From the NCBI GenBank assembly GCA_000146045.2, contig BK006944.2, positions 1 through 64,000 on the forward strand: DNA of 64,000 nucleotides, read 5' to 3'. The first letter of the stretch is position 1; each line of letters starts with the position of its first letter. Origin of the DNA: TPA_inf: Saccharomyces (taxonomy: Eukaryota). A model generated the notes under the pieces. The model searched no databases and was not told where the DNA came from. It saw only the letters and a program-made list of their open reading frames with translations. Shown in pieces: positions 6,101 through 58,900 of this stretch. Both the position numbers and the translations under genes were made by a program.

Positions 6101-7528
6101 TTGGCGATGTCCGAAGAACGGCATGAAGATCATCATAGGGATGTTGAAAATAAATTGAATTTAAATGGTAAAGACGATATTAACGGGAATACCTCAATCT
6201 CGATCGAGGTGCCTGATGGAGGATATGGGTGGTTTATTCTTCTTGCTTTTATTCTGTACAACTTTTCTACTTGGGGGGCAAATTCTGGTTATGCTATTTA
6301 TTTAGCGCATTATTTAGAGAATAATACTTTTGCTGGTGGGAGTAAATTAGACTATGCTTCTATAGGTGGGTTAGCATTCAGTTGTGGACTTTTTTTTGCC
6401 CCAGTTATAACATGGCTTTATCATATATTTTCAATTCAATTCATTATAGGCTTAGGGATACTGTTTCAAGGGGCAGCGCTACTGCTTGCAGCTTTTTCTG
6501 TCACACTCTGGGAAATTTATCTCACGCAAGGCGTTTTAATTGGATTCGGTTTAGCATTTATTTTCATACCCAGTGTCACACTCATCCCACTATGGTTCAG
6601 AAATAAAAGATCTTTAGCCTCTGGTATAGGAACTGCTGGAAGCGGGTTAGGTGGTATTGTCTTTAACTTGGGAATGCAAAGTATTCTACAAAAGAGGGGC
6701 GTTAAATGGGCGCTCATTGCTCAGTGCATAATATGCACATCACTTAGCACCATTGCGCTTATGTTGACCAGAACAACACATCAAGGCCTACGTCAACATA
6801 AGAGATCTTACAAATTTGAATTGCTAGATTATGATGTGCTTTCAAATTTCGCGGTCTGGTTACTTTTTGGATTTGTATCATTTGCTATGTTAGGATATGT
6901 TGTCCTTTTGTATTCCTTGTCTGATTTTACCGTTAGTTTAGGTTATACTAGTAAGCAAGGCTCATACGTATCGTGCATGGTGAGTGTCGGCTCTCTGCTG
7001 GGACGACCAATTGTGGGTCACATTGCTGATAAATATGGATCACTAACAGTTGGCATGATATTGCACCTTGTCATGGCCATCCTTTGTTGGGCCATGTGGA
7101 TACCTTGTAAAAATTTGGCCACTGCGATAGCTTTTGGATTATTGGTTGGTTCTATTATGGGAACAATTTGGCCAACAATTGCTTCAATTGTTACACGCAT
7201 TGTTGGTCTTCAAAAGCTTCCTGGTACCTTTGGTAGTACCTGGATTTTTATGGCGGCTTTTGCCTTAGTTGCCCCCATAATCGGTCTGGAACTTCGTTCA
7301 ACTGATACGAATGGAAACGATTATTATCGTACAGCAATATTCGTGGGTTTTGCGTACTTTGGTGTTAGTTTATGCCAATGGCTATTGAGAGGGTTTATAA
7401 TAGCTCGAGATGAGATTGCTGTGCGTGAAGCCTATTCAGCTGACCAAAATGAATTGCATTTAAACGTTAAGTTATCACATATGAGTAAATGTCTTTTTCG
7501 TTATAAACAATTACCTAGGAGAGTCTAA
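6101..7528 (+). CDS. MCH2: Major facilitator superfamily transporter, monocarboxylate-transporter homologue
   Basis: 475 aa with about 12 hydrophobic segments and an MFS/MCT-like architecture. It is transcribed divergently from the Zn-cluster gene. The name comes from chromosome XI gene order. Confidence 0.8.
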   Translation: MAMSEERHEDHHRDVENKLNLNGKDDINGNTSISIEVPDGGYGWFILLAFILYNFSTWGANSGYAIYLAHYLENNTFAGGSKLDYASIGGLAFSCGLFFAPVITWLYHIFSIQFIIGLGILFQGAALLLAAFSVTLWEIYLTQGVLIGFGLAFIFIPSVTLIPLWFRNKRSLASGIGTAGSGLGGIVFNLGMQSILQKRGVKWALIAQCIICTSLSTIALMLTRTTHQGLRQHKRSYKFELLDYDVLSNFAVWLLFGFVSFAMLGYVVLLYSLSDFTVSLGYTSKQGSYVSCMVSVGSLLGRPIVGHIADKYGSLTVGMILHLVMAILCWAMWIPCKNLATAIAFGLLVGSIMGTIWPTIASIVTRIVGLQKLPGTFGSTWIFMAAFALVAPIIGLELRSTDTNGNDYYRTAIFVGFAYFGVSLCQWLLRGFIIARDEIAVREAYSADQNELHLNVKLSHMSKCLFRYKQLPRRV

Positions 7529-9090
7529 AGGTCACTTTTATTTCACACTGTAGATAAGAAGGGGATAGAGTTGCCAGAAAATTTTTTGCTTTATCAGCTT
7601 TTTAGATTTGTCTTCTCGTTTTATAAATAATGATAATTTAGTACAATAATAGATAATAAAAACATTTTTTTTTGCAAATTGAAAGCTTAACTGGTTTTTT
7701 AAAAGAAAATATTAGTGACCTTCTACCGACTAAAATCTTCCACTAAATCCCCAGTAGAAACATAAGATAAGGTTGAAACTTTTTTAGGGCGATTATATTT
7801 TTAGTCCTATACATGTTTGATGGCATACTTTTTAAGGAAGATTTATGAAGCTATGTTCCACATAGGTTTATGTGCTATTGATATATACTATAAATAAAAC
7901 GCTCTACCCAAGAAATGAAACATTTTTTAAACTTTTGTCATCAGCACAAAAATATGCGGATTTACGCGTTTGTCATTCCTATAAACCTTAACCTTAACGC
8001 GAAACCATATTTCGCTACCTAATGTTGGTTCGGTGCATTTTGAGAAAAGGAACTAGGTTCAGATATCATGCATCGAATCTATTATCTTCCAACCGAACTT
8101 TTACAAACGTTTAGACCGAGCGTTATTGACTGAATTAAGAGCAAGTTTTTACACGTGTGACTCTGGCACATTAGAGCTGTTTGAGAATCTAAAGTCTTGC
8201 TGTCTAAGGACCAAAAATAATGTATTTCGAGGTCATAGCTAAGAATCTCATTGTTCTTCAGCACTTGCTAATCACATATCTATTTCTAAGTACAAGATGA
8301 TAGTTAACAACTAATAATGAATAAACCAGGTAAAAAAAAAAAAAGAAAAAGCTGTAAAAGACGACAACGTTGGCGTCGCGAAAATATTAATAGAACCATA
8401 TGTTGGATAATGTAGCCTCTATTATACACTTATCCCGATTACATTGTTTTAGCGACGGTAATCATCTTTTTATCCGGCACTCTGAATCAAACTCTATCTT
8501 TAAGTATCCTATATGCATGAGTTATGTCGATTATATCGAAGACTCGGTGTGTGATATTACTCCACAGTACAAAAACAGGAATACAGAGAAAATTGAAAAG
8601 ATATATGAACGGATGGTATGGTAAATAAAATAACAGCCATTATAAAGCTTGTGGTAAATTTTCCAGGACGGAAGTTAGCTTATGCAGTTTTGTTTATCTT
8701 CCTTGCATCTGTGTATAATACTGAAACACGCAATTAACGTTTCATAAAATTTGCCTGAGGGCCGTATAAAAATTCAGTGACCATTGTTCACACTTTAAAT
8801 ATAGCCAAATTGCCAAGAAAGGGTTTCATTGCAGGTTTATCGAAATATTAACTCTTTAAATACAGGGACTATACAGAGCTAACTTCTTAAGAAAAAAAAC
8901 CATGCGACACACTACGACTTTCACAAATTCCATAAAAGAGATATTTAAGATTTAGATAAAATATCAAAGGACTGCTGTACTCTGCTTCAATTACCTCCTT
9001 ACCATAAAGTTATAGGCAGCTTTCTCCATCGACATACTAAAATTTGGATAGGTATTATTAATGAAATGACTAGTTTTAAGTAAAAAATGA

Positions 9091-11655: not shown

Positions 11656-14484
11656 AATTACGAATAAATGTACAATAATCATCCTGTTTGCATAGTAAAC
11701 TTCCAGTTAGAGTCACACAACGCAATGAATTTTGACAGTTTTCTGTGCGATATTCTTTGGTAAACGTAAAGAACAGGCAACTTTTGGTACAATGGATTCT
11801 AGCCCATATGGTTCATTTCTGGTGCATTCGCAAAGTCAGTATTTGTCTAGCTGTGTTTTCTGGCTGAGAGACATTATGATGTTATTCATTGTTATGGATA
11901 TCTCTGTAGCTCATGCTGCTTATTTCTCCCTAAAAAAGTTTTTTCTCTCGAATACATTCTTGACCATTTCATAGTGAAATTCTTGTACTTATTTAAAACC
12001 AAAAATGGAAGTATTCATACATCCCCCTATCAAAAACACTCAATAAGTTTCGAATTATTCGTTCGTCTAAACAGTGTCCAATACTCAAAGGGGTATTCAA
12101 GACGGCACAAAATCAGCATCTTCCCTTATCCGTGTTCCAGAAATACCACGCTAAGGTTTTTCCTCCTACAATCCATAAAATCATTAAGGAGGCAGCTTGA
12201 AAAATCTTGAAATTCAAAAGAGTTATCTTGGGCTAATCGAAATTAACGATAACCAGAGTAGAATATTCAAGATCACAGCTCCACCTTAGTTTCGAGGTTG
12301 CTCTCAATGGTCTAGCTTAGTCATGCTTTTTGTTAAACAAATCTTGCCTTTTCTGATATTCTATAGTGTGGTCCAATCCAGATATTGGCGCATCCTAAAC
12401 CAATTATAGTTCACTTATGAAGGGCAAATGAACACTCTTACCAGTTTCACAAATAATTAGTACTAGCTAGGCGGTCAAACTGACTAGCTTATTATAATAT
12501 TATCGATGTAACATTTTTCCATAGTGAGGGAGGAAAATAAACCTTAAAAAAATATGCAAGGATTCTAGATTTCAGGCTAGTCTTCAACCACTTTGCACTT
12601 CCGGATTAAAGGCTTTTATAGAAAACATCTTGGTTTGGGACTATATTGCTAGGTGAAAATTTCAAAATTGTACAAAAGATCATTCTTGTTTTTTTGCCTC
12701 ATTAGCTGATACAATGCGGAACTACATGGCGCTCTTTTATAAGCATCTACTATGGTACATTCTAAGTATGTGGATCTTGGTTAACACATAGACATTTTTT
12801 AACTTCTTGATATCGGTTCCGCTAAATTTGCTGATTATATTTGTTCACTAGGCCAGATCATAATGCCTGTAATATTGAGTACTTAATATCGATACTTGAT
12901 ATCCGAACAGTAAACGTTTGTCCGTAGTCATCGTGACTGTTGACGTATTAACTGCAAGAAATGATGGAAAAAATTTAGGTATATTTGCAGATGAAAACTC
13001 TAGAACACTGCCGTTGAAGAAAGAATGGCTTCAGCCGTCATGCTGTCTATCTGTTTGTAAACTTTTGGAAGTTTTACATATTTTGCACTATTTTCTTTAG
13101 CACGAGGTATATGTTTCTTTTTCAATAAAAATCGTCCTTTTGAAGAGCCAAGAACACTTTTGATTTGAGTGTATAGGATAATAATATTGCTTCTAGCGCT
13201 TAATGACCATGTTTGTACTTACCTCTCTCCCACCTTGTATAGGCGGATTGGCTATAATAACGCGTTATATGCATCAAAATATGTAGTTCTCTTTCATTTT
13301 AGCAAATTCGTAATACGACTCCAGATAATAATACCAAGTCATTTTTGGGTACCAGTGAGAATTGGGTCTCATAACTGATTGTGAATCTCAATATTACAGT
13401 GATGTGAGGGAAAATACTTAATTAAAAAGGAAAAAAGAAATGTTACTTTTCTATTTTAAATGAAGATTCAGTTTGTTAAACATGGATTTTCCATAGCATT
13501 AGGTTTTTATATTTCCAAATCCATTTTATTTAAACTTTTGAATCATGGGATATAAAGTTACATGCAATAGGAAAAGTTGTCATGAACTCCATTTGAAACT
13601 AAGGAAGAACAGTAACAGAAGTTTTTTGTTATGAATTATTCATGAACTTAGAGCTGCTAATTTGGAGTGGGTCCAAGTCATCATTTTTTTGCGGGGCTAT
13701 GATTACACAATCTGCGCACATAATATAATCGGCTTTGTATCTTTAACATCAAGTAAGACCTTGAAAATTTATTCTATCTTTAGACAATGAACGGAGTTAC
13801 AGAACGATTTTCGTCTTCCCCATTTGATCAAAAACTAACTGAAAATTGCAGTGTTGTAATTTTTGAAACGCCGAACGAAGTTTTCACCAACTTAACAGAA
13901 GCAGAAGACCGTTCTTGAACTAGGCTGCACTGTAGAACGCTGAGCACTTTACCATTCACCACGCTATTTTCAACGGAAAAATCAATAAATCCTTGAATTG
14001 CCTTCATTTAAATGCCAATTACACCTCGTATATCTAAAATTGCTGACATATATTATTTCTTTTTGATACTTCGCTGGGAATCTCACAGAAAGGTGGCTCT
14101 AGAATACAGAAGAACAAAGTACATAGTCCGTAATTGATGTATGAAGTTAATGGGAAAGTACGAATGGTACTGTCCACTCAAGTAATACTTTGAGATTGAA
14201 ATTTGAAGCTTTTTCAAGTAAATACCATAATGATACCAACAATGATACCTACAATTTTAAATATCGTAATTGTTAACTTGATTTTTCATAATCTCATTTA
14301 CCGACTTGCAATACTAAACGGGTACCAGCAGACAATAGAAAACCTTCTCATTTGAAATGAATTCTAATTGTGAAGGCGGAAATGCGTACTTTGAGGAACG
14401 TCTATTGTCGTATAAAAGTTTTACAATTAACTAAGCCAATGTATGATACGCCCGCTTGGCGGCTTTTTCTTTCCGACTATATAA

Positions 14485-15708
14485 ATGCAAATAGTCAGAA
14501 GTTGTAACTCCAATAACAAACCCCTCATACCGTCCTCAAATTGGCATATCGCTATCAGAATGAGAGGCGATGGGGTTAAAGATAGGAGTATAGATGTGTT
14601 ATCCCTCAAACATTTCGAATCCCAGAAAGTTGTTCTGCCTCAAGACCTTTTCATGGATAACTTCACCTGGATGTTTTATGAGTTCTTCAAGTGCTTCACG
14701 TTTCGTACCTGGTTGCTATTATTACTGCTAATGTGGTTGCCAGGTTTTCTTTCGCAGATAAAGTCCATCAATCGGATTTTTCCGTTTAAACTTTGTATTT
14801 TAGTCTCATGCCTAGTGGGGATATTTTTACCCAATATTTATTCATTCTCTCATAAAAGTGTGTTAACGAATCAACTTACTCAGTTCTCCAAAGAAATTGT
14901 TGAACATGCACCAGGTACTGATACTCATGATTGGGAAACAGTTGCGGCAAATCTAAATTCTTACTTCTATGAAAATAAAGCTTGGAATACTGAGTACTTC
15001 TTTTTCAATGCTGCAGAGTGTCAAAAAGCATTCAGAAAAGTTCTTCTCGAACCATTCTCTGTGAAGAAAGATGAATCTTCGAAAATAAAATCATTTGGGG
15101 ATTCTGTCCCCTACATCGAAGAGGCCTTGCAAGTCTATTCCACAGAATTTGACAAAAAGTGGAAGTTGTTCAATACTGAGAAAGTGTGGAGCCCTGATAA
15201 CTTGGAACATGTTCAGCTCCCCAAGAAAACTTATCGTTATAAGTTTACCTGGGTTCTCAAGAGGATTTTCAATCTCTGGCTTTTTCCAGCATTTATTCTG
15301 TTTCTGGCTTGTATCTATGTGTCATGGGATAAGGGCCATCTATTTCGTATCTTGTGTTGTGGGGGAGGTTTTCTCCTTATGGTAAGAGTTTTTCAAAATA
15401 TGAGGCCCTTTTCCATGCACATGGAAGACAAAATGCAGTTCTTGTCAACGATTATAAATGAGCAAGAAAGTGGTGCGAATGGATGGGACGAAATTGCAAA
15501 GAAAATGAACAGGTACTTGTTTGAGAAAAAAGTCTGGACTAGTGAAGAGTTTTTCTTTGATGGGATTGACTGTGAATGGTTTTTTAACCACTTCTTTTAC
15601 CGCCTTCTATCTACAAAGAAACCTATGTTTGATAGACCTCTAAACGTGGAACTATGGCCATACATTAAAGAAGCGCAATTGACCCGCAAACAGGCGCCTC
15701 CCGTGTAG
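14485..15708 (+). CDS. COS9: COS/DUP380 family subtelomeric membrane protein
   Basis: 407 aa. It shows conserved COS-family blocks (HDWETVAANLNSYFYENKAWNTEYFFFNAAECQKAF...) including the internally duplicated DUP motif. The specific paralogue is assigned from its position. Confidence 0.75.
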   Translation: MQIVRSCNSNNKPLIPSSNWHIAIRMRGDGVKDRSIDVLSLKHFESQKVVLPQDLFMDNFTWMFYEFFKCFTFRTWLLLLLLMWLPGFLSQIKSINRIFPFKLCILVSCLVGIFLPNIYSFSHKSVLTNQLTQFSKEIVEHAPGTDTHDWETVAANLNSYFYENKAWNTEYFFFNAAECQKAFRKVLLEPFSVKKDESSKIKSFGDSVPYIEEALQVYSTEFDKKWKLFNTEKVWSPDNLEHVQLPKKTYRYKFTWVLKRIFNLWLFPAFILFLACIYVSWDKGHLFRILCCGGGFLLMVRVFQNMRPFSMHMEDKMQFLSTIINEQESGANGWDEIAKKMNRYLFEKKVWTSEEFFFDGIDCEWFFNHFFYRLLSTKKPMFDRPLNVELWPYIKEAQLTRKQAPPV

Positions 15709-15779
15709 GAACAAGCATGCCTTTTCAATTTATAGATCGTGTAGTTTATTAGATGCGAATAGCCTAAACAAGGTCGCTT

Positions 15780-16300
15780 ATTATTATTATTACAACTATT
15801 CTTTTTCCTATTCCCCTCTGGTTAACAAAAACCAGTATATTAACAGAAATAAATAATAATAACAAAAAAATATGAATATAAGAATAAATTGCAATAAATA
15901 GTAATATTTATAAAATATAAAAAGAAGAAATTTTTATTCTTTTTATATTTTATTATAAAATAGTTCAATTATTTATATTATTTAAATGTTGTAATTTATT
16001 ATTAATAATTATATTTTATCAATATTTATACGATATAAAAATTTAAAAAAATTATAATATAGAAATAATAAATAATAATAATATGATAATAAAATAATAT
16101 ATAAATAAAAATGATAAGATTATATTAATTTATTTAATTTTCAAATTATTAAATAAATAATAACCTAATACTTACTTTTCCTAATATTATTAAAAATGGT
16201 TATTGTCAAACCCATTAACTGATTATATTATAATATTTCAATATTTAATTCACTTAATTTGTTGTTATAATAATTAATGAAATAGAGAAACTATAATCCA
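15780..16300. repeat. Extremely A+T-rich low-complexity block (above about 90% AT over about 500 bp), mitochondrial-spacer-like
   Basis: There is visible base-composition discontinuity against the flanking nuclear DNA. The block contains ACS matches, for example TTTTATATTTT at 15941-15951. Confidence 0.6.
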
Positions 16301-17358: not shown

Positions 17359-18339
17359 CTAAATCGTTGGGCCATCTTCCTTCCCAGAGATTAAAGTAGC
17401 ATATCTCTTCATGTCTACATTACCTCCACTTAGTATTATGCCTACTTTCTTCCCAACTAGCTCTTCCTTTTTTAGAAGTGCACCTGCAAATCCCAAACAA
17501 GCTGTGGGCTCAACAACCACCTTCATGCGTTCCGCAAGAAAGTGCATGCATTTTACTAGCTCTTGGTCGCTAACCGTTAAAATATCATCGACATTTTCGC
17601 GAATAATGGCAAATGTGTACTCACCGAGGTGTTGTGTTTGAGCGCCATCTGCGATAGTTTTTGGCGTATTGATATGAACAATGGAACCCGATCTGAAGGA
17701 TTGTTGTCCATCGTTACCAGCTTCAGGTTCAACCCCAAAAATTTTGCAGCCTGGAGAAAGGCTTCTAGCGGCAAGTGCAGATCCTGAAAGGAGCCCACCA
17801 CCGCCCAAAGGAACAAATAATGCATCAAGTTGTCCAACCTCTTCTAATAGCTCTTTTGCCGACGTACCTTGCCCTGCAATAACATCAGGATGATCGTAGG
17901 GCGGAATCAATGCAAAACCATGTTCGGCTGCTAGTTGACGCCCAATCTGCTCGCGATCTTCAGTATACCTGTTATACCTTATGATATGTGCTCCGTAACC
18001 GGCTGTAGCAGCAACTTTAAGGGCGGGCGCATCCTCGGGCATAACAATTGTTGCAGGTACATTTAATAGTTTTGCACTAAGAGCAATAGCCTGTGCATGG
18101 TTTCCTGATGAGAAGGCAATTACTCCCTTACTTCTTTTTTCATCACTTAATTTTGAAACAGCATTCATTGCTCCACGAAACTTGAACGCTCCCACTCGTT
18201 GGAAATTCTCACCTTTAAAGTATATTTGTGCTCCAAGTCGATCATTAAGCATTCGTGAAGTGAGAACCGGTGTTTTATTTACATATTCTTTAATTCTGTT
18301 GCTGGCATCCAAAACGTCTCCATAAGTGGGAACAATCAT
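17359..18339 (-). CDS. SRY1: PLP-dependent serine/threonine dehydratase-fold enzyme (3-hydroxyaspartate dehydratase)
   Basis: 326 aa. It has the PLP-lysine motif GAFKFRGA, a Gly-rich loop GGGGL, and a serine-racemase-like fold. Confidence 0.8.
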   Translation of the reverse strand: MIVPTYGDVLDASNRIKEYVNKTPVLTSRMLNDRLGAQIYFKGENFQRVGAFKFRGAMNAVSKLSDEKRSKGVIAFSSGNHAQAIALSAKLLNVPATIVMPEDAPALKVAATAGYGAHIIRYNRYTEDREQIGRQLAAEHGFALIPPYDHPDVIAGQGTSAKELLEEVGQLDALFVPLGGGGLLSGSALAARSLSPGCKIFGVEPEAGNDGQQSFRSGSIVHINTPKTIADGAQTQHLGEYTFAIIRENVDDILTVSDQELVKCMHFLAERMKVVVEPTACLGFAGALLKKEELVGKKVGIILSGGNVDMKRYATLISGKEDGPTI

Positions 18340-22233: not shown

Positions 22234-24084
22234 ATGTCGTCGTCAATTACAGATGAGAAAATATCTGGTGAACAGCAACAACCTGCTGGCAGAAAACTAT
22301 ACTATAACACAAGTACATTTGCAGAGCCTCCTCTAGTGGACGGAGAAGGTAACCCTATAAATTATGAGCCGGAAGTTTACAACCCGGATCACGAAAAGCT
22401 ATACCATAACCCATCACTGCCTGCACAATCAATTCAGGATACAAGAGATGATGAATTGCTGGAAAGAGTTTATAGCCAGGATCAAGGTGTAGAGTATGAG
22501 GAAGATGAAGAGGATAAGCCAAACCTAAGCGCTGCGTCCATTAAAAGTTATGCTTTAACGAGATTTACGTCCTTACTGCACATCCACGAGTTTTCTTGGG
22601 AGAATGTCAATCCCATACCCGAACTGCGCAAAATGACATGGCAGAATTGGAACTATTTTTTTATGGGTTATTTTGCGTGGTTGTCTGCGGCTTGGGCCTT
22701 CTTTTGCGTTTCAGTATCAGTCGCTCCATTGGCTGAACTATATGACAGACCAACCAAGGACATCACCTGGGGGTTGGGATTGGTGTTATTTGTTCGTTCA
22801 GCAGGTGCTGTCATATTTGGTTTATGGACAGATAAGTCTTCCAGAAAGTGGCCGTACATTACATGTTTGTTCTTATTTGTCATTGCACAACTCTGTACTC
22901 CATGGTGTGACACATACGAGAAATTTCTGGGCGTAAGGTGGATAACCGGTATTGCTATGGGAGGAATTTACGGATGTGCTTCTGCAACAGCGATTGAAGA
23001 TGCACCTGTGAAAGCACGTTCGTTCCTATCAGGTCTATTTTTTTCTGCTTACGCTATGGGGTTCATATTTGCTATCATTTTTTACAGAGCCTTTGGCTAC
23101 TTTAGGGATGATGGCTGGAAAATATTGTTTTGGTTTAGTATTTTTCTACCAATTCTACTAATTTTCTGGAGATTGTTATGGCCTGAAACGAAATACTTCA
23201 CCAAGGTTTTGAAAGCCCGTAAATTAATATTGAGTGACGCAGTGAAAGCTAATGGTGGCGAGCCTCTACCAAAAGCCAACTTTAAACAAAAGATGGTATC
23301 CATGAAGAGAACAGTTCAAAAGTACTGGTTGTTGTTCGCATATTTGGTTGTTTTATTGGTGGGTCCAAATTACTTGACTCATGCTTCTCAAGACTTGTTG
23401 CCAACCATGCTGCGTGCCCAATTAGGCCTATCCAAGGATGCTGTCACTGTCATTGTAGTGGTTACCAACATCGGTGCTATTTGTGGGGGTATGATATTTG
23501 GACAGTTCATGGAAGTTACTGGAAGAAGATTAGGCCTATTGATTGCATGCACAATGGGTGGTTGCTTCACCTACCCTGCATTTATGTTGAGAAGCGAAAA
23601 GGCTATATTAGGTGCCGGTTTCATGTTATATTTTTGTGTCTTTGGTGTCTGGGGTATCCTGCCCATTCACCTTGCAGAGTTGGCCCCTGCTGATGCAAGG
23701 GCTTTGGTTGCCGGTTTATCTTACCAGCTAGGTAATCTAGCTTCTGCAGCGGCTTCCACGATTGAGACACAGTTAGCTGATAGATACCCATTAGAAAGAG
23801 ATGCCTCTGGTGCTGTGATTAAAGAAGATTATGCCAAAGTTATGGCTATCTTGACTGGTTCTGTTTTCATCTTCACATTTGCTTGTGTTTTTGTTGGCCA
23901 TGAGAAATTCCATCGTGATTTGTCCTCTCCTGTTATGAAGAAATATATAAACCAAGTGGAAGAATACGAAGCCGATGGTCTTTCGATTAGTGACATTGTT
24001 GAACAAAAGACGGAATGTGCTTCAGTGAAGATGATTGATTCGAACGTCTCAAAGACATATGAGGAGCATATTGAGACCGTTTAA
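22234..24084 (+). CDS. JEN1: Monocarboxylate (lactate/pyruvate)/H+ symporter, MFS sialate:H+ symporter family
   Basis: 616 aa with 12 TM segments and hydrophilic N- and C-termini. Confidence 0.9.
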   Translation: MSSSITDEKISGEQQQPAGRKLYYNTSTFAEPPLVDGEGNPINYEPEVYNPDHEKLYHNPSLPAQSIQDTRDDELLERVYSQDQGVEYEEDEEDKPNLSAASIKSYALTRFTSLLHIHEFSWENVNPIPELRKMTWQNWNYFFMGYFAWLSAAWAFFCVSVSVAPLAELYDRPTKDITWGLGLVLFVRSAGAVIFGLWTDKSSRKWPYITCLFLFVIAQLCTPWCDTYEKFLGVRWITGIAMGGIYGCASATAIEDAPVKARSFLSGLFFSAYAMGFIFAIIFYRAFGYFRDDGWKILFWFSIFLPILLIFWRLLWPETKYFTKVLKARKLILSDAVKANGGEPLPKANFKQKMVSMKRTVQKYWLLFAYLVVLLVGPNYLTHASQDLLPTMLRAQLGLSKDAVTVIVVVTNIGAICGGMIFGQFMEVTGRRLGLLIACTMGGCFTYPAFMLRSEKAILGAGFMLYFCVFGVWGILPIHLAELAPADARALVAGLSYQLGNLASAAASTIETQLADRYPLERDASGAVIKEDYAKVMAILTGSVFIFTFACVFVGHEKFHRDLSSPVMKKYINQVEEYEADGLSISDIVEQKTECASVKMIDSNVSKTYEEHIETV

Positions 24085-26591: not shown

Positions 26592-26623
<32 letters not shown>
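26592..26623. repeat. (AT)16 dinucleotide microsatellite
   Basis: A perfect AT/TA run lies in the URA1-OXP1 intergenic region, where the two 3' ends converge. Confidence 0.9.

Positions 26624-26625
<2 letters not shown>

Positions 26626-36587: not shown

Positions 36588-36619
<32 letters not shown>
36588..36619. repeat. (AT)16 dinucleotide microsatellite
   Basis: A perfect AT/TA run lies in the SAC1-TRP3 convergent 3' intergenic region. Confidence 0.9.

Positions 36620-42335: not shown

Positions 42336-42364
<29 letters not shown>
42336..42364. repeat. (TTA)9-10 trinucleotide microsatellite
   Basis: The repeat sits between the convergent 3' ends of UBA1 and STE6. It generates the spurious poly-Asn ORF at 42281..42526. 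Confidence 0.9.
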
Positions 42365-42369
<5 letters not shown>

Positions 42370-42422
42370 AGTCTCGAATATTTGAGTATGTTTTAGTTTT
42401 TTGTTTTATATTTTCTTTGGGT

Positions 42423-53703: not shown

Positions 53704-55602
53704 ATGGAACTCAACGACCCTTCAATTATATCAAGCAGCCAGTTTTCAGGTGAATTGTCTGACAGCGATACTGCAGCCGCTACTCACAAATCGCAACAAG
53801 CCATCTCAAATTTATTCCAAAAATTAGCCAAAAAGGGCAGAGAAGAGAAGCCAATCGGTAGCGTAGAATCTTCAACTGATAGCTCTAACATTTCTGTTGC
53901 TACGAGCGGTAACAATAAAGAAAGCAATAAAAAAAAAAATAAGAAAACGGCCATGCTAAATTTCAGCAGTTTGACGGACCCTATAACGAACTACAAACCA
54001 ATGGATCTGCAATACAAGACATATGCATACTCCATGAATGAACTTTATCATTTGAAACCATCTTTGGCAAGTGCTTCGTACGAAGAAGACCCACTTATTT
54101 CGGAACTTGTGAGGAGTTTACCCAAAAGAAAGTTTTGGCGATTGCGCATGGGACCTCCAGATCAAAAGCATGCTAATAACCATCATTTTAATGGGAACAA
54201 TGGTGGAGGCAGTTGGAAGGCTGGTTACAAGAATGGGAAAAACGATGAGAGAAGAATGAGTAGAACCAAAAACATGCAGGGAGGCAAACGAAGATCTCAA
54301 CAAGATGATGAAGAAAAAAAGATTGACCAAGAAATGCTGGAGATGGACAAGAATCTTCAATTAGGAGGTGACGTCGGCCATTCAATTGCAGATTTTGAAG
54401 ATTGGAAGGCAAAGATGAAAGAATTAGAATTGAAAAAACTTTCAAAATCTAAAGGAATCAGTAACTCTACCGCAATTGCTCCCAGGGAAAGCGCCTCTCA
54501 TGAAACACCCACCGATTTAAGACCGGTCATTCCAAGGGGCCCTAGTTCAATAACAGATTTTTTGAATTTAAAGAGGCAAGATAAGAAGGAAGAATCTTCA
54601 CAACAAACACCTGGTATTCCTGTTGGACAGCCAAGCCTATCCAAAACCAGTATAGAACAAGTTAACGAATTAGAAACTAATTCAGATTTGGGTAAAAGTT
54701 CATCATCTCGGTTTTCATCATTTTTCAATAAATCTGCCACTTCGTTGCCTTCATTAGATAATAATAATCAAGTGCCATCGTCAAACGTGTCTGTAGTAAA
54801 CAACGATGGCAACAGTACACCTCATCAAAGTGGTTCAAGACTGATGTCGTTTTTCAAAGAATCTAGATCGAGCACTCCAAATGCAGAATCGCAGTTGTTA
54901 TCAGCCTCAGACAAAGATAATGGAAAGATGCAGACTCTTCCGCAATTCCAGCAGCAACCGCAACAAATGCAACCAATGGCATTTACCCAGCATCCTCCTA
55001 ATAACAACGCATTTTTCAATGGGCTATTGAATAAAGGTAAAAGTGAAACTAGTACTCCTCCTCCTCCACCCCCAGGACTAATTGCTCATCAGGGTCCACA
55101 ATTTCCTGTGATGGGTGTACCACCAAATTTTCCACAACGCATGATGCCACCGCCACCAGGTCTCGTTCAATTCCAGAAAGATTCTAAAGATGTAAATAAG
55201 AAGGAAGACAGGCAATTAAGGCAAAATAAAAATCCAAACGGAACAAGAAATAGCAAGGGAAAACAAGAGGAAACAGCAACGCCAGATCTGCCTCAACAGC
55301 AATACATGCCACCACCCCCACCTCCAGGGTTTTTTCCAATGCATCCTAACTTTCCTAACGGCCCAATGCCACCATTACCACAGGGGTTCCCAATCCCACC
55401 AAATGGTATGTTACCGGTAACAGGACAACAGCCACAGCCACCTTATCCAAATATGATGCTACAAGGAAATTTCCCCCCTAATTTCCAGCAAGGTTTTGGT
55501 AGTAACTCCCCTATGCCAATTCCATCTATTATTAATGCCAATGGCAAAAATGTTACAAACCAGTTACCACCAGGATTAAACTCTAAAAAGAATATAAAAT
55601 GA
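53704..55602 (+). CDS. EAP1: eIF4E-associated protein (4E-BP-like translational repressor), low-complexity Pro/Gln/Asn-rich
   Basis: 632 aa. The YxxxxL-phi eIF4E-binding motif is YSMNELY. The C-terminal half is rich in P/Q/N and poly-Pro (PPPPPPG). Confidence 0.85.
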   Translation: MELNDPSIISSSQFSGELSDSDTAAATHKSQQAISNLFQKLAKKGREEKPIGSVESSTDSSNISVATSGNNKESNKKKNKKTAMLNFSSLTDPITNYKPMDLQYKTYAYSMNELYHLKPSLASASYEEDPLISELVRSLPKRKFWRLRMGPPDQKHANNHHFNGNNGGGSWKAGYKNGKNDERRMSRTKNMQGGKRRSQQDDEEKKIDQEMLEMDKNLQLGGDVGHSIADFEDWKAKMKELELKKLSKSKGISNSTAIAPRESASHETPTDLRPVIPRGPSSITDFLNLKRQDKKEESSQQTPGIPVGQPSLSKTSIEQVNELETNSDLGKSSSSRFSSFFNKSATSLPSLDNNNQVPSSNVSVVNNDGNSTPHQSGSRLMSFFKESRSSTPNAESQLLSASDKDNGKMQTLPQFQQQPQQMQPMAFTQHPPNNNAFFNGLLNKGKSETSTPPPPPPGLIAHQGPQFPVMGVPPNFPQRMMPPPPGLVQFQKDSKDVNKKEDRQLRQNKNPNGTRNSKGKQEETATPDLPQQQYMPPPPPPGFFPMHPNFPNGPMPPLPQGFPIPPNGMLPVTGQQPQPPYPNMMLQGNFPPNFQQGFGSNSPMPIPSIINANGKNVTNQLPPGLNSKKNIK

Positions 55603-55934
55603 GATGCGTAACGAGCGAGTACTTGACAGGAAACGACAAAAACACAGTGAACATACTATCTAAAAGCATGTTCTTTTCCTTTTCATTTTTCATCTTTATT
55701 ATCTAGAGTTTGTATATAACATGTATCCTATATTATCTTATCCTATCATCATCACTTAACTTGTTATAATTCTCCCATATACTTATGTTTTCGCCTTTGA
55801 TATTTACTAGTCGAAGGAACTTTTTTCGCAGTTAGTAACGTCACGCTCGGAACTAAACATTAATGAATGAGATGCATTTTTATACAACACTTTTACAGGC
55901 TATATACAACTAAGTGATTTTCAATACATTAAAA

Positions 55935-58900
55935 CTACCAGAATGGACACCAACCGATATAATGTTGGCATAGGTTTTCCACTGATGTGGCTTGTTGGAT
56001 TAGTTTATCCACTTGTTCTGGAACGTCCAAGTCATTAAACCTTCTTATATCGTTCCCCGTTAATTTGTCAGTAATGCGCTTCAATACCAACATGGCCCTT
56101 GCATTTCGAATGGCATTCTTGTGCTCGTTTTCCACCCTTTGAACTTCTTCTTCGGTAATAGCCCCATTACTCAATAGCTCATTGGCATTCATCACGGGAA
56201 GTTGAATGCCCGTTTCTTCCTCAATTTTCTTTGTTGGTAAGTCAAAACCCCAATTGATCAAAGGATCGAAAGCAAAAGCTTCAAGGATTGCCATTAATGA
56301 ACCCTTGTTATCTCTAAGTACCTTCATAACATTCTCACAAGTAATACGGAAGCTACCTTCAATTCCACTCACTTCCATTGCATATGTTAACATTCTAGTT
56401 AATCTAAAAGGTACTTTTTCGGGGAATTTTTCTCTTAATATAGCAGCCTCGAAACAATCACCAAAATCAATATGAATGACTTTCCCAGTGATTCTATCCA
56501 ACATCAAATTACTAGGGTGGCGGTCACCTAACCCCAATATATAACCGGTCATGGACATCACGGCTAGCGATCGAGTGTAAGTAGTTCTACGCTCCAACCA
56601 CGTTTCCGATGACCTACTCTTCAGCCATAACACCTTATAAAGATCTTGTCCCTCCGTATTATTTAGGGCGTAAGTGAAGACTTCTACTTTCTGCAACAAC
56701 GTTAAATTGTCATAATCAGGTGCCATTTGTAACATGACCCAATGCTCAATGTTTAAAGGAATTTTTTTGGCTTCTCTATGCTCCCTAATTAATACATGGA
56801 ACGTGTCACTATTCGGTACCCAACCCAGTAACCCAGACTTCGGAGATAATGGGATTGCTGGATATTGCTGGATATCTAGATGCCTTCTAAAGCACTCAGC
56901 GTCATTTTGCAAAAGCGTGTTAACTAGTCCGAATAATTGCATGACCAAGCTATCCTGTCTAATGTCTTCATGTCCTTTCAACACATACTTATAATCTTTA
57001 CCATCACTACCCTTGATACAAAACTTTCTCGGTCTTTGTTTGGATGAGATTACTGAAAATACTGGCTCGAATTTAGATATTTTAACAATTGGTTTTCCAC
57101 CACTTGCACGGGTCCCGGGGACAGCCAATTCCAAATCATGCGCAGATAGTAGTTTTGGCGACACATGTTGTAGTTCAAGAGTTTGTAATTGTGGCAACTG
57201 TTTACCAATTTTCCTGAAAACATTATAGTAAATGTCCCACGCTTGGTTTAAATTACTAACATCTTTAGATTTTTTGTAATTCATCAGCCATTCGTAAGCG
57301 TCATTCAAGTCCCTACCAAAAGAATTTTGGAACGATATTTCCCTCAAAGTTTCCGGTCCTCTCTTCAGCATTTCGTACAGAGGCTCTAAAGCAGCAAACA
57401 TTTTTTCGGTATTATGTTCTCCAAAAAACTGCCTACTGGCGTCATCCAGACCCTCATACCATTGCTCATGCCAAAGCACCGCCATACGTATCAATTCGTG
57501 GCTGACAAGTTCAGCCTGGTCGACCAAAACTGGACTATGTATTCTCATCTTTTCTATGATGGACAAAGCTGCTTTCTGTCGTGAGAGAGATTCGGATTTA
57601 ATCGCAACCATTAAGGGGTACACTAATGCCTGCGGATGAGCCTTACCTAGATCAGATAATAGGGAGAGTAATGACCTACTAACAATTTGATTGGGTTGAT
57701 GAATTCTAGAAATTAACTGTGGCAACACTTCTAACCATGTGCCTATTTGGATTAGGTTGAAACCCTCGTGCATAGCTTGGGTTGCTTCTGGAATACCACC
57801 AAAAGTAAACCATAAAGTTAATAACCTTAATGCATCTTGAAGAGAGCTTGATTCTGATAAAGAAATGGAATGAAAAAAACCCTTAATTGCTGGAATTACG
57901 TGCCTGTGTATTAAATTAGAAGAGTAATGAACTTCCTTAGCATCAAATGTATTGACGCCGATCATGCCATTATCAAACTCATTAATATCAGTTACCGAGG
58001 AAGCATCACTTCCTTCCTGTTTCTTTTTAGAGACAGATGTTAGCATAGAAATGACTTCAAAATTGGCCAGTGCCCAGTTATGCCACGCTTTGTACCATGT
58101 GTTGTCAAAATGTGTAGCGAGCAAATAGGAGCCTAGGATCGAATCTGGATTGCTCAATCTCCATTTAGGCTGTAAGCAAACTCTCCATTCTCCTTGCTTC
58201 AAGAAACAACGAGCTAAAAGCTTAGTATAATCTTCAACGTGACGAGGGACTCTTTTGCTTTGTTGAGGAACGCTTTGAGCTATCATATTATTTGGATCCA
58301 AACCTAAATCATGAGCCATTCTAGATGTGAAATTAATTAATTGCTTCAAAGCCTCATCTTGCAACCCCGTAGCCCACAAGTACTTCAGTTGTGCATAAAC
58401 AACTGGAGGGGATGCCTTAGCAGTATTAGGATGATCTGGGTCATCTGTTTCTTCAAGCAATGTATTTAAGACTTTTTTAGCTAGCGCCATCCTACCCGAT
58501 TTTCTGCATAAGTTGGCAAACTTAATCCTCACTTGAGCATCCTCCTTTGGCTTTATCACCAATGATCTGACACGCAGAATTCTTTGCCACACATCAATAT
58601 TTTTTTGACAGCCCAGTAATCTGGTATTCCAAGTTTCTCTCATAGTTAGACGTTTATCTGAATTTTGTGGCAACTTCTTATATTTGATGATTTCCTCCAA
58701 CTCTGCTATAATCTGCGCTCTAACAACAACATTATATGCTCTATTGTAGCTTTCATTAACAAGAGCTGACAATTCAGTAACTAGAAGATCCCTTGCATTA
58801 AAGATGTGAACTTCCGCCTTCTTAAAATTATTCCTATGCAAACATAAAATTGCATCATAGAATTCTTTATCTGGAGACTGCGATTTCATGACGCTAGTAT

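What the first reader, a model, noticed from the sequence alone, without database searches (positions are those of the whole stretch)
15780..16300. ~500-bp block of >90% A+T downstream of COS9, resembling mitochondrial spacer DNA (possible NUMT and/or origin)
The base composition changes abruptly at both edges. The flanking DNA is about 60-65% AT, typical of the yeast nuclear genome, whereas this block is almost pure A/T, with (AATAAT)n, (ATATTA) and TTATTATT-type motifs. Such motifs are characteristic of S. cerevisiae mtDNA intergenic spacers and are very rarely seen in nuclear intergenic DNA. Mitochondrial fragments are known to be captured at double-strand-break repair sites and to be enriched near chromosome ends. 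The block also contains perfect ACS matches (for example TTTTATATTTT at 15941-15951), so it could alternatively, or additionally, act as a subtelomeric replication origin or DNA-unwinding element. I cannot distinguish these possibilities from sequence alone.
Basis: partly seen in the sequence, partly recalled or inferred. Interest (0 to 1): 0.6.

Follow-up and report, generated by a model that had tools for sequence, protein, structure and literature searches.

The report
Patchwork mitochondrial DNA insert near COS9
The extremely A+T-rich block downstream of COS9 is a roughly 424-bp patchwork of mitochondrial DNA fragments that entered the nuclear chromosome in the S. cerevisiae lineage, a well-known kind of repair scar, and nothing shows that it acts as a replication origin.

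Summary
The window is S. cerevisiae S288C chrXI-left. Positions 15847-16163 are 93.4% A+T, by far the most extreme stretch in the 64 kb; the whole flagged interval 15780-16300 is 87.5% A+T.

Alignment with S. paradoxus shows nuclear homology stopping at 15851 and resuming at 16276. So 424 bp (90.3% A+T) are specific to S. cerevisiae and replace 106 bp of ordinary DNA. S. kudriavzevii also lacks the block. All 15 S. cerevisiae haplotypes sampled carry it.

I compared the block with a closed tiling of S. cerevisiae mtDNA (about 440 kb from 20 loci). Three pieces match far beyond what composition alone gives:
- 16192-16256 matches the 21S rRNA gene, 63/65 identical with a 47-nt exact run, antisense.
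- 15964-16015 matches VAR1, 51/52 identical with a 44-nt exact run, antisense.
- 15855-15931 matches a spacer about 2 kb downstream of COX3, 86% over 79 bp, z of about 6.

About 160 bp (16027-16186) cannot be assigned to any mtDNA region.

This is a mosaic NUMT of the kind produced when mtDNA fragments are captured during end-joining repair of a double-strand break. The two perfect ACS matches are what the composition predicts (P=0.16), and published ORC/MCM maps show no site here. It is an ordinary member of a known class, so interest is low to moderate.

The parts
14485..15708 (+). COS9 (YKL219W) ORF, 407 aa, DUP/COS family. This is the upstream neighbour; the insert begins 144 bp after its stop codon.
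   Evidence: ORF list. The same 407-aa product carries PF00674 DUP in strain loci. The gene name comes from my knowledge of the S288C annotation.
15780..15851 (.). Left shoulder of the flagged block: native nuclear intergenic DNA, 75% A+T, including a (TTA)5 microsatellite at 15778-15792. It is not part of the insert.
   Evidence: Local alignment with S. paradoxus runs through to 15851. TRF. Composition.
15852..16275 (.). S. cerevisiae-specific insert, 424 bp, 90.3% A+T: the mosaic NUMT as a whole. It replaces 106 bp of ordinary-composition DNA present in S. paradoxus (L013 10229-10124).
   Evidence: Present in 15 S. cerevisiae haplotypes at 95-99% identity and absent in L013 and L011.
15855..15931 (+). 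Fragment F1: derived from an A+T-rich mtDNA spacer about 2 kb downstream of COX3 and about 0.5 kb upstream of an ori/rep element. Same orientation as the mitochondrial genes.
   Evidence: 86% identity over 79 bp to L026 12744-12821 (also L024 and L031). Score 77.6 bits against a null of 45.3 +/- 5.6, maximum 60.3. Alignment. Ori core GGGGTCCC...GGGACCCC at L031 ~13340-13390.
15932..16026 (-). Fragment F2: antisense piece of the mitochondrial VAR1 gene. The core 15964-16015 is 51/52 identical; looser homology with indels extends to about 15935 and 16026. It matches the VAR1 allele that lacks the GC cluster.
   Evidence: 44-nt exact run against a null maximum of 28. 98.1% over 52 bp to L016 23062-23011, inside VAR1 22831-23997. 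82.9% over 105 bp. Alignments.
16027..16186 (.). Unassigned A+T-rich filler, 160 bp, 91.9% A+T. It sits between two proven mtDNA fragments and has mito-like word usage, but no significant match to any sampled mtDNA.
   Evidence: Best hit 54.5 bits against a null of 50.8 +/- 6.6. The A/T-word log-likelihood is mito-like, but the test also scored a nuclear microsatellite region as mito-like, so it is weak. Weak approximate tandem repeats.
16187..16263 (-). Fragment F3: antisense piece of the mitochondrial 21S rRNA gene. The core 16192-16256 is 63/65 identical; it extends a few bases on each side if 1-2-nt indels are allowed.
   Evidence: 47-nt exact run. 96.9% over 65 bp to L020 8008-7944 and L022 7998-7934. 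That position lies inside the Rfam LSU rRNA hit L020 7200-8905.
16276..16300 (.). Right shoulder: native nuclear DNA, 76% A+T, where homology with S. paradoxus resumes.
15912..15922 (-). Perfect 11-bp ACS match (TTTTATATTTT) inside F1.
   Evidence: The count is within the expectation from composition.
15941..15951 (+). Perfect 11-bp ACS match (TTTTATATTTT) in the left part of F2.
   Evidence: The count is within the expectation from composition.
17359..18339 (-). SRY1 (YKL218C) ORF, the convergent downstream neighbour. It served as the anchor for retrieving syntenic loci from other strains and species.
   Evidence: Identical to NP_012704.1..

Best explanation
The block is a mosaic NUMT (nuclear copy of mitochondrial DNA). 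In the S. cerevisiae lineage, after its split from S. paradoxus, a chromosome break in the COS9-SRY1 intergenic region was repaired by non-homologous end joining. The repair captured several unrelated fragments of mtDNA as filler: a spacer downstream of COX3, an antisense piece of VAR1, an antisense piece of the 21S rRNA gene, and probably one or more spacer pieces that can no longer be traced. About 106 bp of the original nuclear sequence was lost in the process. The extreme A+T content is simply inherited from yeast mtDNA, which is about 83-85% A+T overall and higher in spacers and VAR1. The insert is most likely functionally inert filler. Since insertion it has drifted and has repeatedly suffered internal deletions.

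Shown here: mitochondrial origin of three segments, lineage-specific presence, and the junction positions.

Inferred: the break-and-end-joining mechanism (from published experiments), loss of the 106 bp in S. cerevisiae rather than its gain in S. paradoxus, and a mitochondrial origin for the 160-bp unassigned part.
For: 1. Match to mtDNA beyond composition.
- 47-nt and 44-nt exact runs, against a longest exact match of 21-22 nt on average (28 at most) for composition-matched Markov sequences.
- Under stringent scoring the three hits reach 113, 95.6 and 63.9-77.6 bits, against null maxima of 58-60.
- The 21S hit lies inside an Rfam LSU rRNA match, and the VAR1 hit lies inside the called VAR1 gene.

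2. The mtDNA reference was a closed tiling of the circle: COX1, ATP6-COB-ATP9-VAR1, 21S/I-SceI, COX2 and COX3 loci, with overlaps checked and the last overlap 100% identical over 242 bp.

3. Lineage specificity.
- Homology with S. paradoxus CBS432 stops at 15851 and resumes at 16276, within 3 nt of the start of F1 and 12-19 nt of the end of F3.
- S. kudriavzevii has a 906-bp COS-SRY1 intergenic region with no 200-bp stretch below 24.5% GC.
- All 15 S. cerevisiae haplotypes sampled carry the insert.

4. The three source regions lie far apart on mtDNA and are in mixed orientation, that is, a complex insertion. In yeast, mtDNA fragments of 22-492 bp are captured experimentally at double-strand breaks by NHEJ, and about 12% of such events join two to four fragments (PMC11372161). 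Resident yeast NUMTs are 22-236 bp and several loci hold multiple insertions (PMC3050842).

5. No other part of the 64-kb window matches mtDNA except plain microsatellites.
Against: - About 160 bp (16027-16186), 38% of the insert, has no significant counterpart in the sampled mtDNAs. It could be an in-situ expansion of low-complexity A+T DNA.
- F1 is only 86% identical to its source.
- Only one S. paradoxus and one S. kudriavzevii genome were examined. The S. kudriavzevii intergenic region is not alignable, so 'gain in S. cerevisiae' rests on parsimony.
- The junctions lie in A+T-rich sequence, so microhomology typical of NHEJ could not be scored.
- I could not read the coordinate tables of the published NUMT catalogue.
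Confidence: 0.93

Rival explanations
1. The block is, or also acts as, a subtelomeric replication origin or DNA-unwinding element. ORC would bind one of the ACS matches, and the easily melted A+T DNA would help initiation, as reported for some yeast NUMTs.
For: - Two perfect 11-bp ACS matches at 15912-15922 (-) and 15941-15951 (+).
- ACS density is 4.5 per kb in the block against 0.09 per kb in the rest of the window.
- Chatre & Ricchetti 2011 report that NUMTs are ACS-rich, often support plasmid replication, and that a few behave as late chromosomal origins (PMC3050842).
Against: - The ACS count equals what the composition gives (0.7 expected, P=0.16; with one mismatch 8 observed against 7.5-8.4 expected). 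There is no perfect 17-bp extended ACS.
- mtDNA in general has 1.5-2 ACS per kb.
- The ORC/MCM2 ChIP-chip list of Xu et al. 2006 has chr XI sites at 25-2744, 7399-9005 and 54723-56958 only, with nothing at 15.8-16.3 kb.
- The element is missing in sister species and is partly deleted in three strains, one deletion removing the + strand ACS. It is therefore dispensable.
Confidence: 0.08
2. The block is only partly mitochondrial. Two or three short mtDNA fragments were captured, and the remaining roughly 160-200 bp arose in place by slippage or expansion of A+T-rich low-complexity sequence.
For: - Positions 16027-16186 have no significant mtDNA match.
- TRF reports approximate tandem arrays with periods of 24, 16, 11, 7 and 3 across 16033-16117.
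- The block is length-unstable in the population, with three independent deletions.
Against: - The unassigned stretch is flanked on both sides by proven mtDNA fragments, and the whole 424 bp is missing in S. paradoxus.
- The TRF arrays are only 62-82% matched, which is ordinary for 92% A+T sequence.
- Its A/T word usage and low homopolymer content resemble mtDNA (0.11 of bases in homopolymers, against 0.06 for mtDNA and 0.29 for nuclear A/T runs), but that test is weak.
- mtDNA spacers evolve fast and differ between strains, so losing a traceable source is expected. F1 is already down to 86%.
Confidence: 0.25
3. It is ordinary native A+T-rich intergenic or terminator DNA, and the resemblance to mtDNA is compositional only.
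For: Long low-identity alignments (about 70% over about 300 bp) to many mtDNA spacers are no better than those of shuffled sequences (108 bits against a null of 95 +/- 13). Most of the 'similarity' is indeed composition.
Against: - 47-nt and 44-nt exact matches containing G and C, to the 21S rRNA and VAR1 genes.
- Absence from the syntenic site in two sister species.
- No other stretch of the window comes near this composition.
Confidence: 0.01

Closest known systems
Resident NUMTs of S. cerevisiae (catalogue of Ricchetti, Fairhead & Dujon 1999, as summarised in Chatre & Ricchetti 2011, PMC3050842)
   Same: - Short, non-coding mtDNA fragments lying in an intergenic region.
- High identity to present-day mtDNA.
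- Rich in ACS-like motifs.
- Some loci hold several independent fragments (34 NUMTs at 28 loci).
   Different: The composite here is about 424 bp with at least three fragments plus 160 bp that cannot be traced, whereas catalogued single NUMTs are 22-236 bp. I could not verify whether this locus, or its 65-bp 21S piece, is already in the catalogue. The tables are images in PMC3050842, and the 1999 paper is not held.
Experimentally captured mtDNA at HO or I-SceI breaks: NHEJ 'filler' insertions (Yu & Gabriel 1999 and Ricchetti et al. 1999, from my knowledge; Yu et al. 2024, PMC11372161)
   Same: - Fragment sizes of about 65-95 bp lie within the reported 22-492 bp and above the minimum of about 45 bp.
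- Complex events join two to four unrelated mtDNA pieces in mixed orientation.
- Insertion is accompanied by loss of some nuclear sequence at the break.
   Different: This is an evolutionary, fixed event inferred from comparison. The break, the NHEJ dependence and the junction microhomologies are not observable here.
Yeast ARS elements, and NUMTs with ARS activity (Chatre & Ricchetti 2011)
   Same: A+T-rich, with two perfect 11-bp ACS matches.
   Different: No ORC/MCM2 binding in the Xu et al. 2006 maps. The ACS count is explained by composition. The element is not conserved and is partly deleted in some strains.

Membership tests
NUMT (nuclear mitochondrial DNA segment) | Sequence similarity to the species' mtDNA that exceeds what base composition alone produces | tested here: met
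   - 63/65 (21S rRNA), 51/52 (VAR1) and 86% over 79 bp (spacer downstream of COX3).
- Exact runs of 47 and 44 nt against a null maximum of 28.
- Bit scores of 113, 95.6 and 77.6 against null maxima of 58-60.
- Not met for 16027-16186.
NUMT (nuclear mitochondrial DNA segment) | Physically embedded in a nuclear chromosome and not an assembly artefact | tested here: met
   Contiguous with COS9 and SRY1 in the window and in 15 independent S. cerevisiae chrXI assemblies or haplotypes, including a metagenome scaffold and the synthetic chrXI.
NUMT (nuclear mitochondrial DNA segment) | Insertion polarity: absent from the orthologous nuclear site in outgroups | tested here: met
   S. paradoxus CBS432 has 106 bp of ordinary DNA between the same flanks, with junctions at 15851 and 16276. 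The S. kudriavzevii ZP591 COS-SRY1 intergenic region has no A+T block. Only one genome per outgroup was examined.
NUMT (nuclear mitochondrial DNA segment) | Direction of transfer is mitochondrion to nucleus: the source sequence is an integral part of a mitochondrial gene | tested here: met
   The matched pieces are internal parts of the 21S rRNA and VAR1 genes, out of context and antisense in the nucleus.
NUMT (nuclear mitochondrial DNA segment) | NHEJ-type junctions (0-4 bp microhomology, no target-site duplication) | tested here: inconclusive
   The junctions can be placed only to within a few bases in A+T-rich sequence. No target-site duplication is evident.
ARS / chromosomal replication origin | Match to the 11-bp ACS | tested here: met
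   Two perfect matches, but at the frequency expected from composition (P=0.16).
ARS / chromosomal replication origin | ORC and/or MCM binding in vivo | tested here: not met
   No ORC, MCM2 or ORC-MCM2 site between 9.0 and 54.7 kb on chr XI in Xu et al. 2006, additional file 6. Caveats: this is a single ChIP-chip data set, and probes in 93% A+T DNA may perform poorly.
ARS / chromosomal replication origin | ACS-dependent plasmid maintenance, or bubble arcs on 2D gels | not testable with these tools
   Needs experiments. ARS-seq supplementary tables are not held.

The most novel reading that the evidence does not exclude
The roughly 160-bp unassigned core, together with the GC-cluster-free VAR1 piece, could be a molecular fossil of an ancestral S. 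cerevisiae mtDNA spacer or allele that no longer exists in sampled mitochondria. The whole insert could also have acquired a nuclear role, for example supplying 3'-end formation signals for COS9, acting as a dormant or late origin, or acting as a fragile A+T-rich site that drives the recurrent deletions seen in strains.
Probability: 0.12. Interest if true: 0.4.

Novelty: new member of a known kind. Interest (0 to 1): 0.27.

Why it matters
It explains the most extreme compositional anomaly in this 64-kb window as a repair scar filled with mtDNA, not as a regulatory or replication element. It gives a clean, dated example of a complex multi-fragment NUMT: present in all sampled S. cerevisiae and absent in S. 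paradoxus and S. kudriavzevii.

In practical terms:
- It is a species-diagnostic marker at chrXI-left.
- It is a possible source of mis-mapped mitochondrial reads from 21S rRNA and VAR1.
- It is a length-unstable site, with three independent deletions found.
- It preserves an old VAR1 allele state that lacks the GC cluster.

It does not change current understanding of NUMT biology.

Tried and rejected
- **Permissive BLAST against mtDNA.** It gave thousands of alignments at about 65% identity, purely from composition. With standard scoring the best long hit, 108 bits, was inside the null. Only stringent scoring and exact-match analysis separated real homology from composition.
- **One concatenated mitochondrial protein query.** Searching Cox2+Cox3+Atp6+I-SceI as a single chimera returned none of them. 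Exact look-up of the individual proteins then worked.
- **Direct look-ups.** The S288C Cox1 protein is not on record as a gene product, so a YJM-strain Cox1 was used instead.
- **Published NUMT coordinates.** The tables in PMC3050842 are images. Ricchetti 1999 is not held. Full-text searches for NUMT with COS9, SRY1 or the YKL names found nothing relevant.
- **ARS-seq supplements of Liachko 2013.** Not held.
- **A/T-word Markov classifier (mito against nuclear) for the unassigned 160 bp.** It gave a mito-like score, but it also scored a nuclear microsatellite region as mito-like, so I treat it as inconclusive.
- **Other mtDNA 'hits' in the window.** The hits at 26592-26624, 36589-36616 and 42336-42367 are (AT)n and (TTA)n microsatellites, not NUMTs.
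- **An ARS named ARS1102.** It appears to lie near 8-9 kb, not at the block. I inferred this from distances quoted in PMC12548912 and the MCM2-only site at 7399-9005.

Full report
**Identity of the window and the observation**

The 326-aa ORF at 17359-18339 (-) is identical to NP_012704.1, SRY1 of S. cerevisiae S288C. The 407-aa ORF at 14485-15708 (+) is a DUP/COS-family protein. From my knowledge of the S288C annotation this is COS9/YKL219W, so the window is the left end of chromosome XI.

The flagged block lies in the 1650-bp convergent intergenic region between these two genes.
- In 100-bp windows GC falls to 4-11% between about 15850 and 16200, against 30-45% on either side.
- The lowest 300-bp stretch of the whole window is 15864-16163 at 6.7% GC. 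The next lowest anywhere is 22%.
- As a whole, 15780-16300 is 87.5% A+T. The maximal A+T segment 15847-16163 is 93.4%.

**Comparison with other strains and species**

I used SRY1 as an anchor and fetched the syntenic locus from many assemblies.
- All 15 S. cerevisiae haplotypes examined carry the block at 95-99% identity. They include haplotypes about 3% divergent in the flanks, a metagenome scaffold, and the synthetic chromosome XI.
- Three strains have independent internal deletions: 16017-16236, 16017-16136 and 15942-16008.
- S. paradoxus CBS432 has the same COS-SRY1 arrangement. Its intergenic DNA aligns with the window on both sides, but nuclear homology stops at 15851 and resumes at 16276. 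Between these points S. paradoxus has 106 bp of ordinary composition where S. cerevisiae has 424 bp of 90.3% A+T.
- S. kudriavzevii ZP591 has a 906-bp COS-SRY1 intergenic region with no 200-bp stretch below 24.5% GC.

The block is therefore a lineage-specific insertion, or a replacement of the ancestral sequence.

**Getting mitochondrial DNA**

None of the DNA collections on offer holds yeast mtDNA directly. I recalled the S. cerevisiae mitochondrial protein sequences, and all of them turned out to be in the protein collection exactly as recalled. I used their ids to fetch mtDNA loci around the following genes:
- COB, covering ATP6-COB-ATP9-VAR1
- COX2
- I-SceI and 21S rRNA
- COX3
- COX1

This gave 20 loci, about 440 kb in total, at 14-18% GC, from several strains. 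Overlaps between consecutive loci close the circle, and the last overlap is 100% identical over 242 bp.

**Homology against composition**

Permissive or standard BLAST gives long alignments of 65-71% identity to spacers all over the mtDNA. These are no better than those of composition-matched Markov sequences: 108 bits against a null of 95 +/- 13. Most of the apparent resemblance is therefore compositional.

Stringent scoring and exact-match analysis reveal three specific matches.
- **F3, 16192-16256.** It is 63/65 identical, with a 47-nt exact run containing G and C, to the minus strand of L020 7944-8008. That position lies inside the mitochondrial large-subunit (21S) rRNA gene, shown by the Rfam LSU hit at 7200-8905.
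- **F2, 15964-16015.** It is 51/52 identical, with a 44-nt exact run, to the minus strand of VAR1 in L016. Looser homology spans 15929-16028 at 82.9% over 105 bp. Two other strains have a GC cluster inserted in VAR1 exactly where identity stops, so the nuclear copy reflects the allele without the cluster.
- **F1, 15855-15931.** It is 86% identical over 79 bp to an A+T spacer about 2 kb downstream of COX3 and about 0.5 kb upstream of an ori/rep core. The score is 77.6 bits against a null of 45.3 +/- 5.6 with a maximum of 60.3.

For the exact matches, the null gave a longest run of 21-22 nt on average and 28 at most. For stringent BLAST, the null maximum was 58 bits against observed scores of 113 and 95.6.

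The stretch 16027-16186 (160 bp, 91.9% A+T) has no significant match: 54.5 bits against 50.8 +/- 6.6. An A/T-word classifier scores it as mito-like, but the same classifier misjudges a nuclear microsatellite region, so I do not rely on it.

F1 starts 3 nt after the left junction, and F3 ends 12-19 nt before the right junction. The mitochondrial pieces therefore fill the species-specific interval almost exactly.

**Mechanism**

The three sources lie far apart on mtDNA and are in mixed orientation, which makes this a complex insertion.
- Yeast cells repair chromosomal double-strand breaks by NHEJ with capture of mtDNA fragments of 22-492 bp, with an efficient minimum of about 45 bp.
- About one in eight such events joins two to four fragments (PMC11372161).
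- Resident NUMTs of the reference genome are 22-236 bp, and several loci hold multiple pieces (PMC3050842).

The simplest account is a single break in the COS9-SRY1 spacer in the S. cerevisiae lineage, loss of about 106 bp, and ligation of several mtDNA fragments as filler. This step is inferred and was not observed. The A+T richness follows from the source. The 2-3% divergence of the gene-derived pieces, the 14% divergence of the spacer piece, and the presence of the insert in all sampled haplotypes fit an insertion older than the sampled S. cerevisiae diversity and younger than the split from S. paradoxus.

**Origin hypothesis**

Two perfect 11-bp ACS matches exist, at 15912-15922 (-) and 15941-15951 (+). 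Composition-matched sequences of the same length carry 0.7 on average (P=0.16), and one-mismatch matches are exactly as expected. There is no perfect 17-bp extended ACS.

In the ORC/MCM2 ChIP-chip site list of Xu et al. 2006, the only chr XI sites in the first 64 kb are 25-2744, 7399-9005 (MCM2 only) and 54723-56958. The element is absent in sister species and partly deleted in some strains. I therefore rate chromosomal origin function as unlikely. Weak plasmid ARS activity cannot be excluded, given what is reported for other NUMTs.

**Novelty**

NUMT capture in yeast is textbook, and multi-fragment NUMT loci are already described. I could not read the published coordinate tables, so I cannot say whether this locus, or at least its 65-bp 21S piece, is already listed. 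It is easy to detect and probably is. Interest is low to moderate.

Noticed in passing
window 17359-18339 (-), SRY1: Apart from Saccharomyces orthologues (S. kudriavzevii 89%, S. paradoxus 93%), the best hits of SRY1 are proteobacterial threo-3-hydroxy-L-aspartate ammonia-lyases at 70-74% identity over the full length. The ORF is 42-51% GC in a region of about 33-38% GC. This looks like a gene acquired horizontally from bacteria. A URA1-type DHO_dh gene lies two genes away in the fetched loci. A library search for YKL218C together with horizontal gene transfer found nothing.
   Followed up: partly
L002 (CP135974.1), corresponding to window ~15711 and ~17355: This assembly carries 34-bp loxPsym sites (ATAACTTCGTATAATGTACATTATACGAAGTTAT) just after the COS9 and SRY1 stop codons, with the stop codons recoded. 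It is therefore a synthetic (Sc2.0) chromosome XI. The design kept the whole NUMT block unchanged.
   Followed up: no
window 15942-16236 (strain loci L007, L010, L035): Three independent internal deletions of the block occur among strains: 16017-16236, 16017-16136 and 15942-16008. Two share the same left breakpoint at 16017. This suggests slippage or microhomology-mediated instability of the A+T-rich insert.
   Followed up: partly
L014 22824-22780 and L015 ~23032 (VAR1) against window 16007-16026: The VAR1 alleles of two mtDNA strains carry a GC cluster inserted exactly where their identity to the nuclear copy ends. The cluster-free allele (L016) continues to match. The NUMT therefore preserves the cluster-free state of VAR1.
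   Followed up: partly
window 42336-42367, 26592-26624, 36589-36616: The other low-GC spots of the window that hit mtDNA are plain microsatellites, (TTA)10 and (AT)n, not NUMTs. A perfect ACS sits at 42404-42414, next to the (TTA)10 tract.
   Followed up: yes
window 7399-9005: Xu et al. 2006 list an MCM2-only site here (peak 8365). From distances quoted in PMC12548912, this is probably the element called ARS1102. It is the nearest mapped pre-RC site to the block, about 7 kb away.
   Followed up: no
L006 (BLZQ01000010.1), corresponding to window ~15714-16142: This assembly has a 100-N gap and missing sequence exactly over the A+T block. The region evidently breaks short-read assemblies.
   Followed up: no
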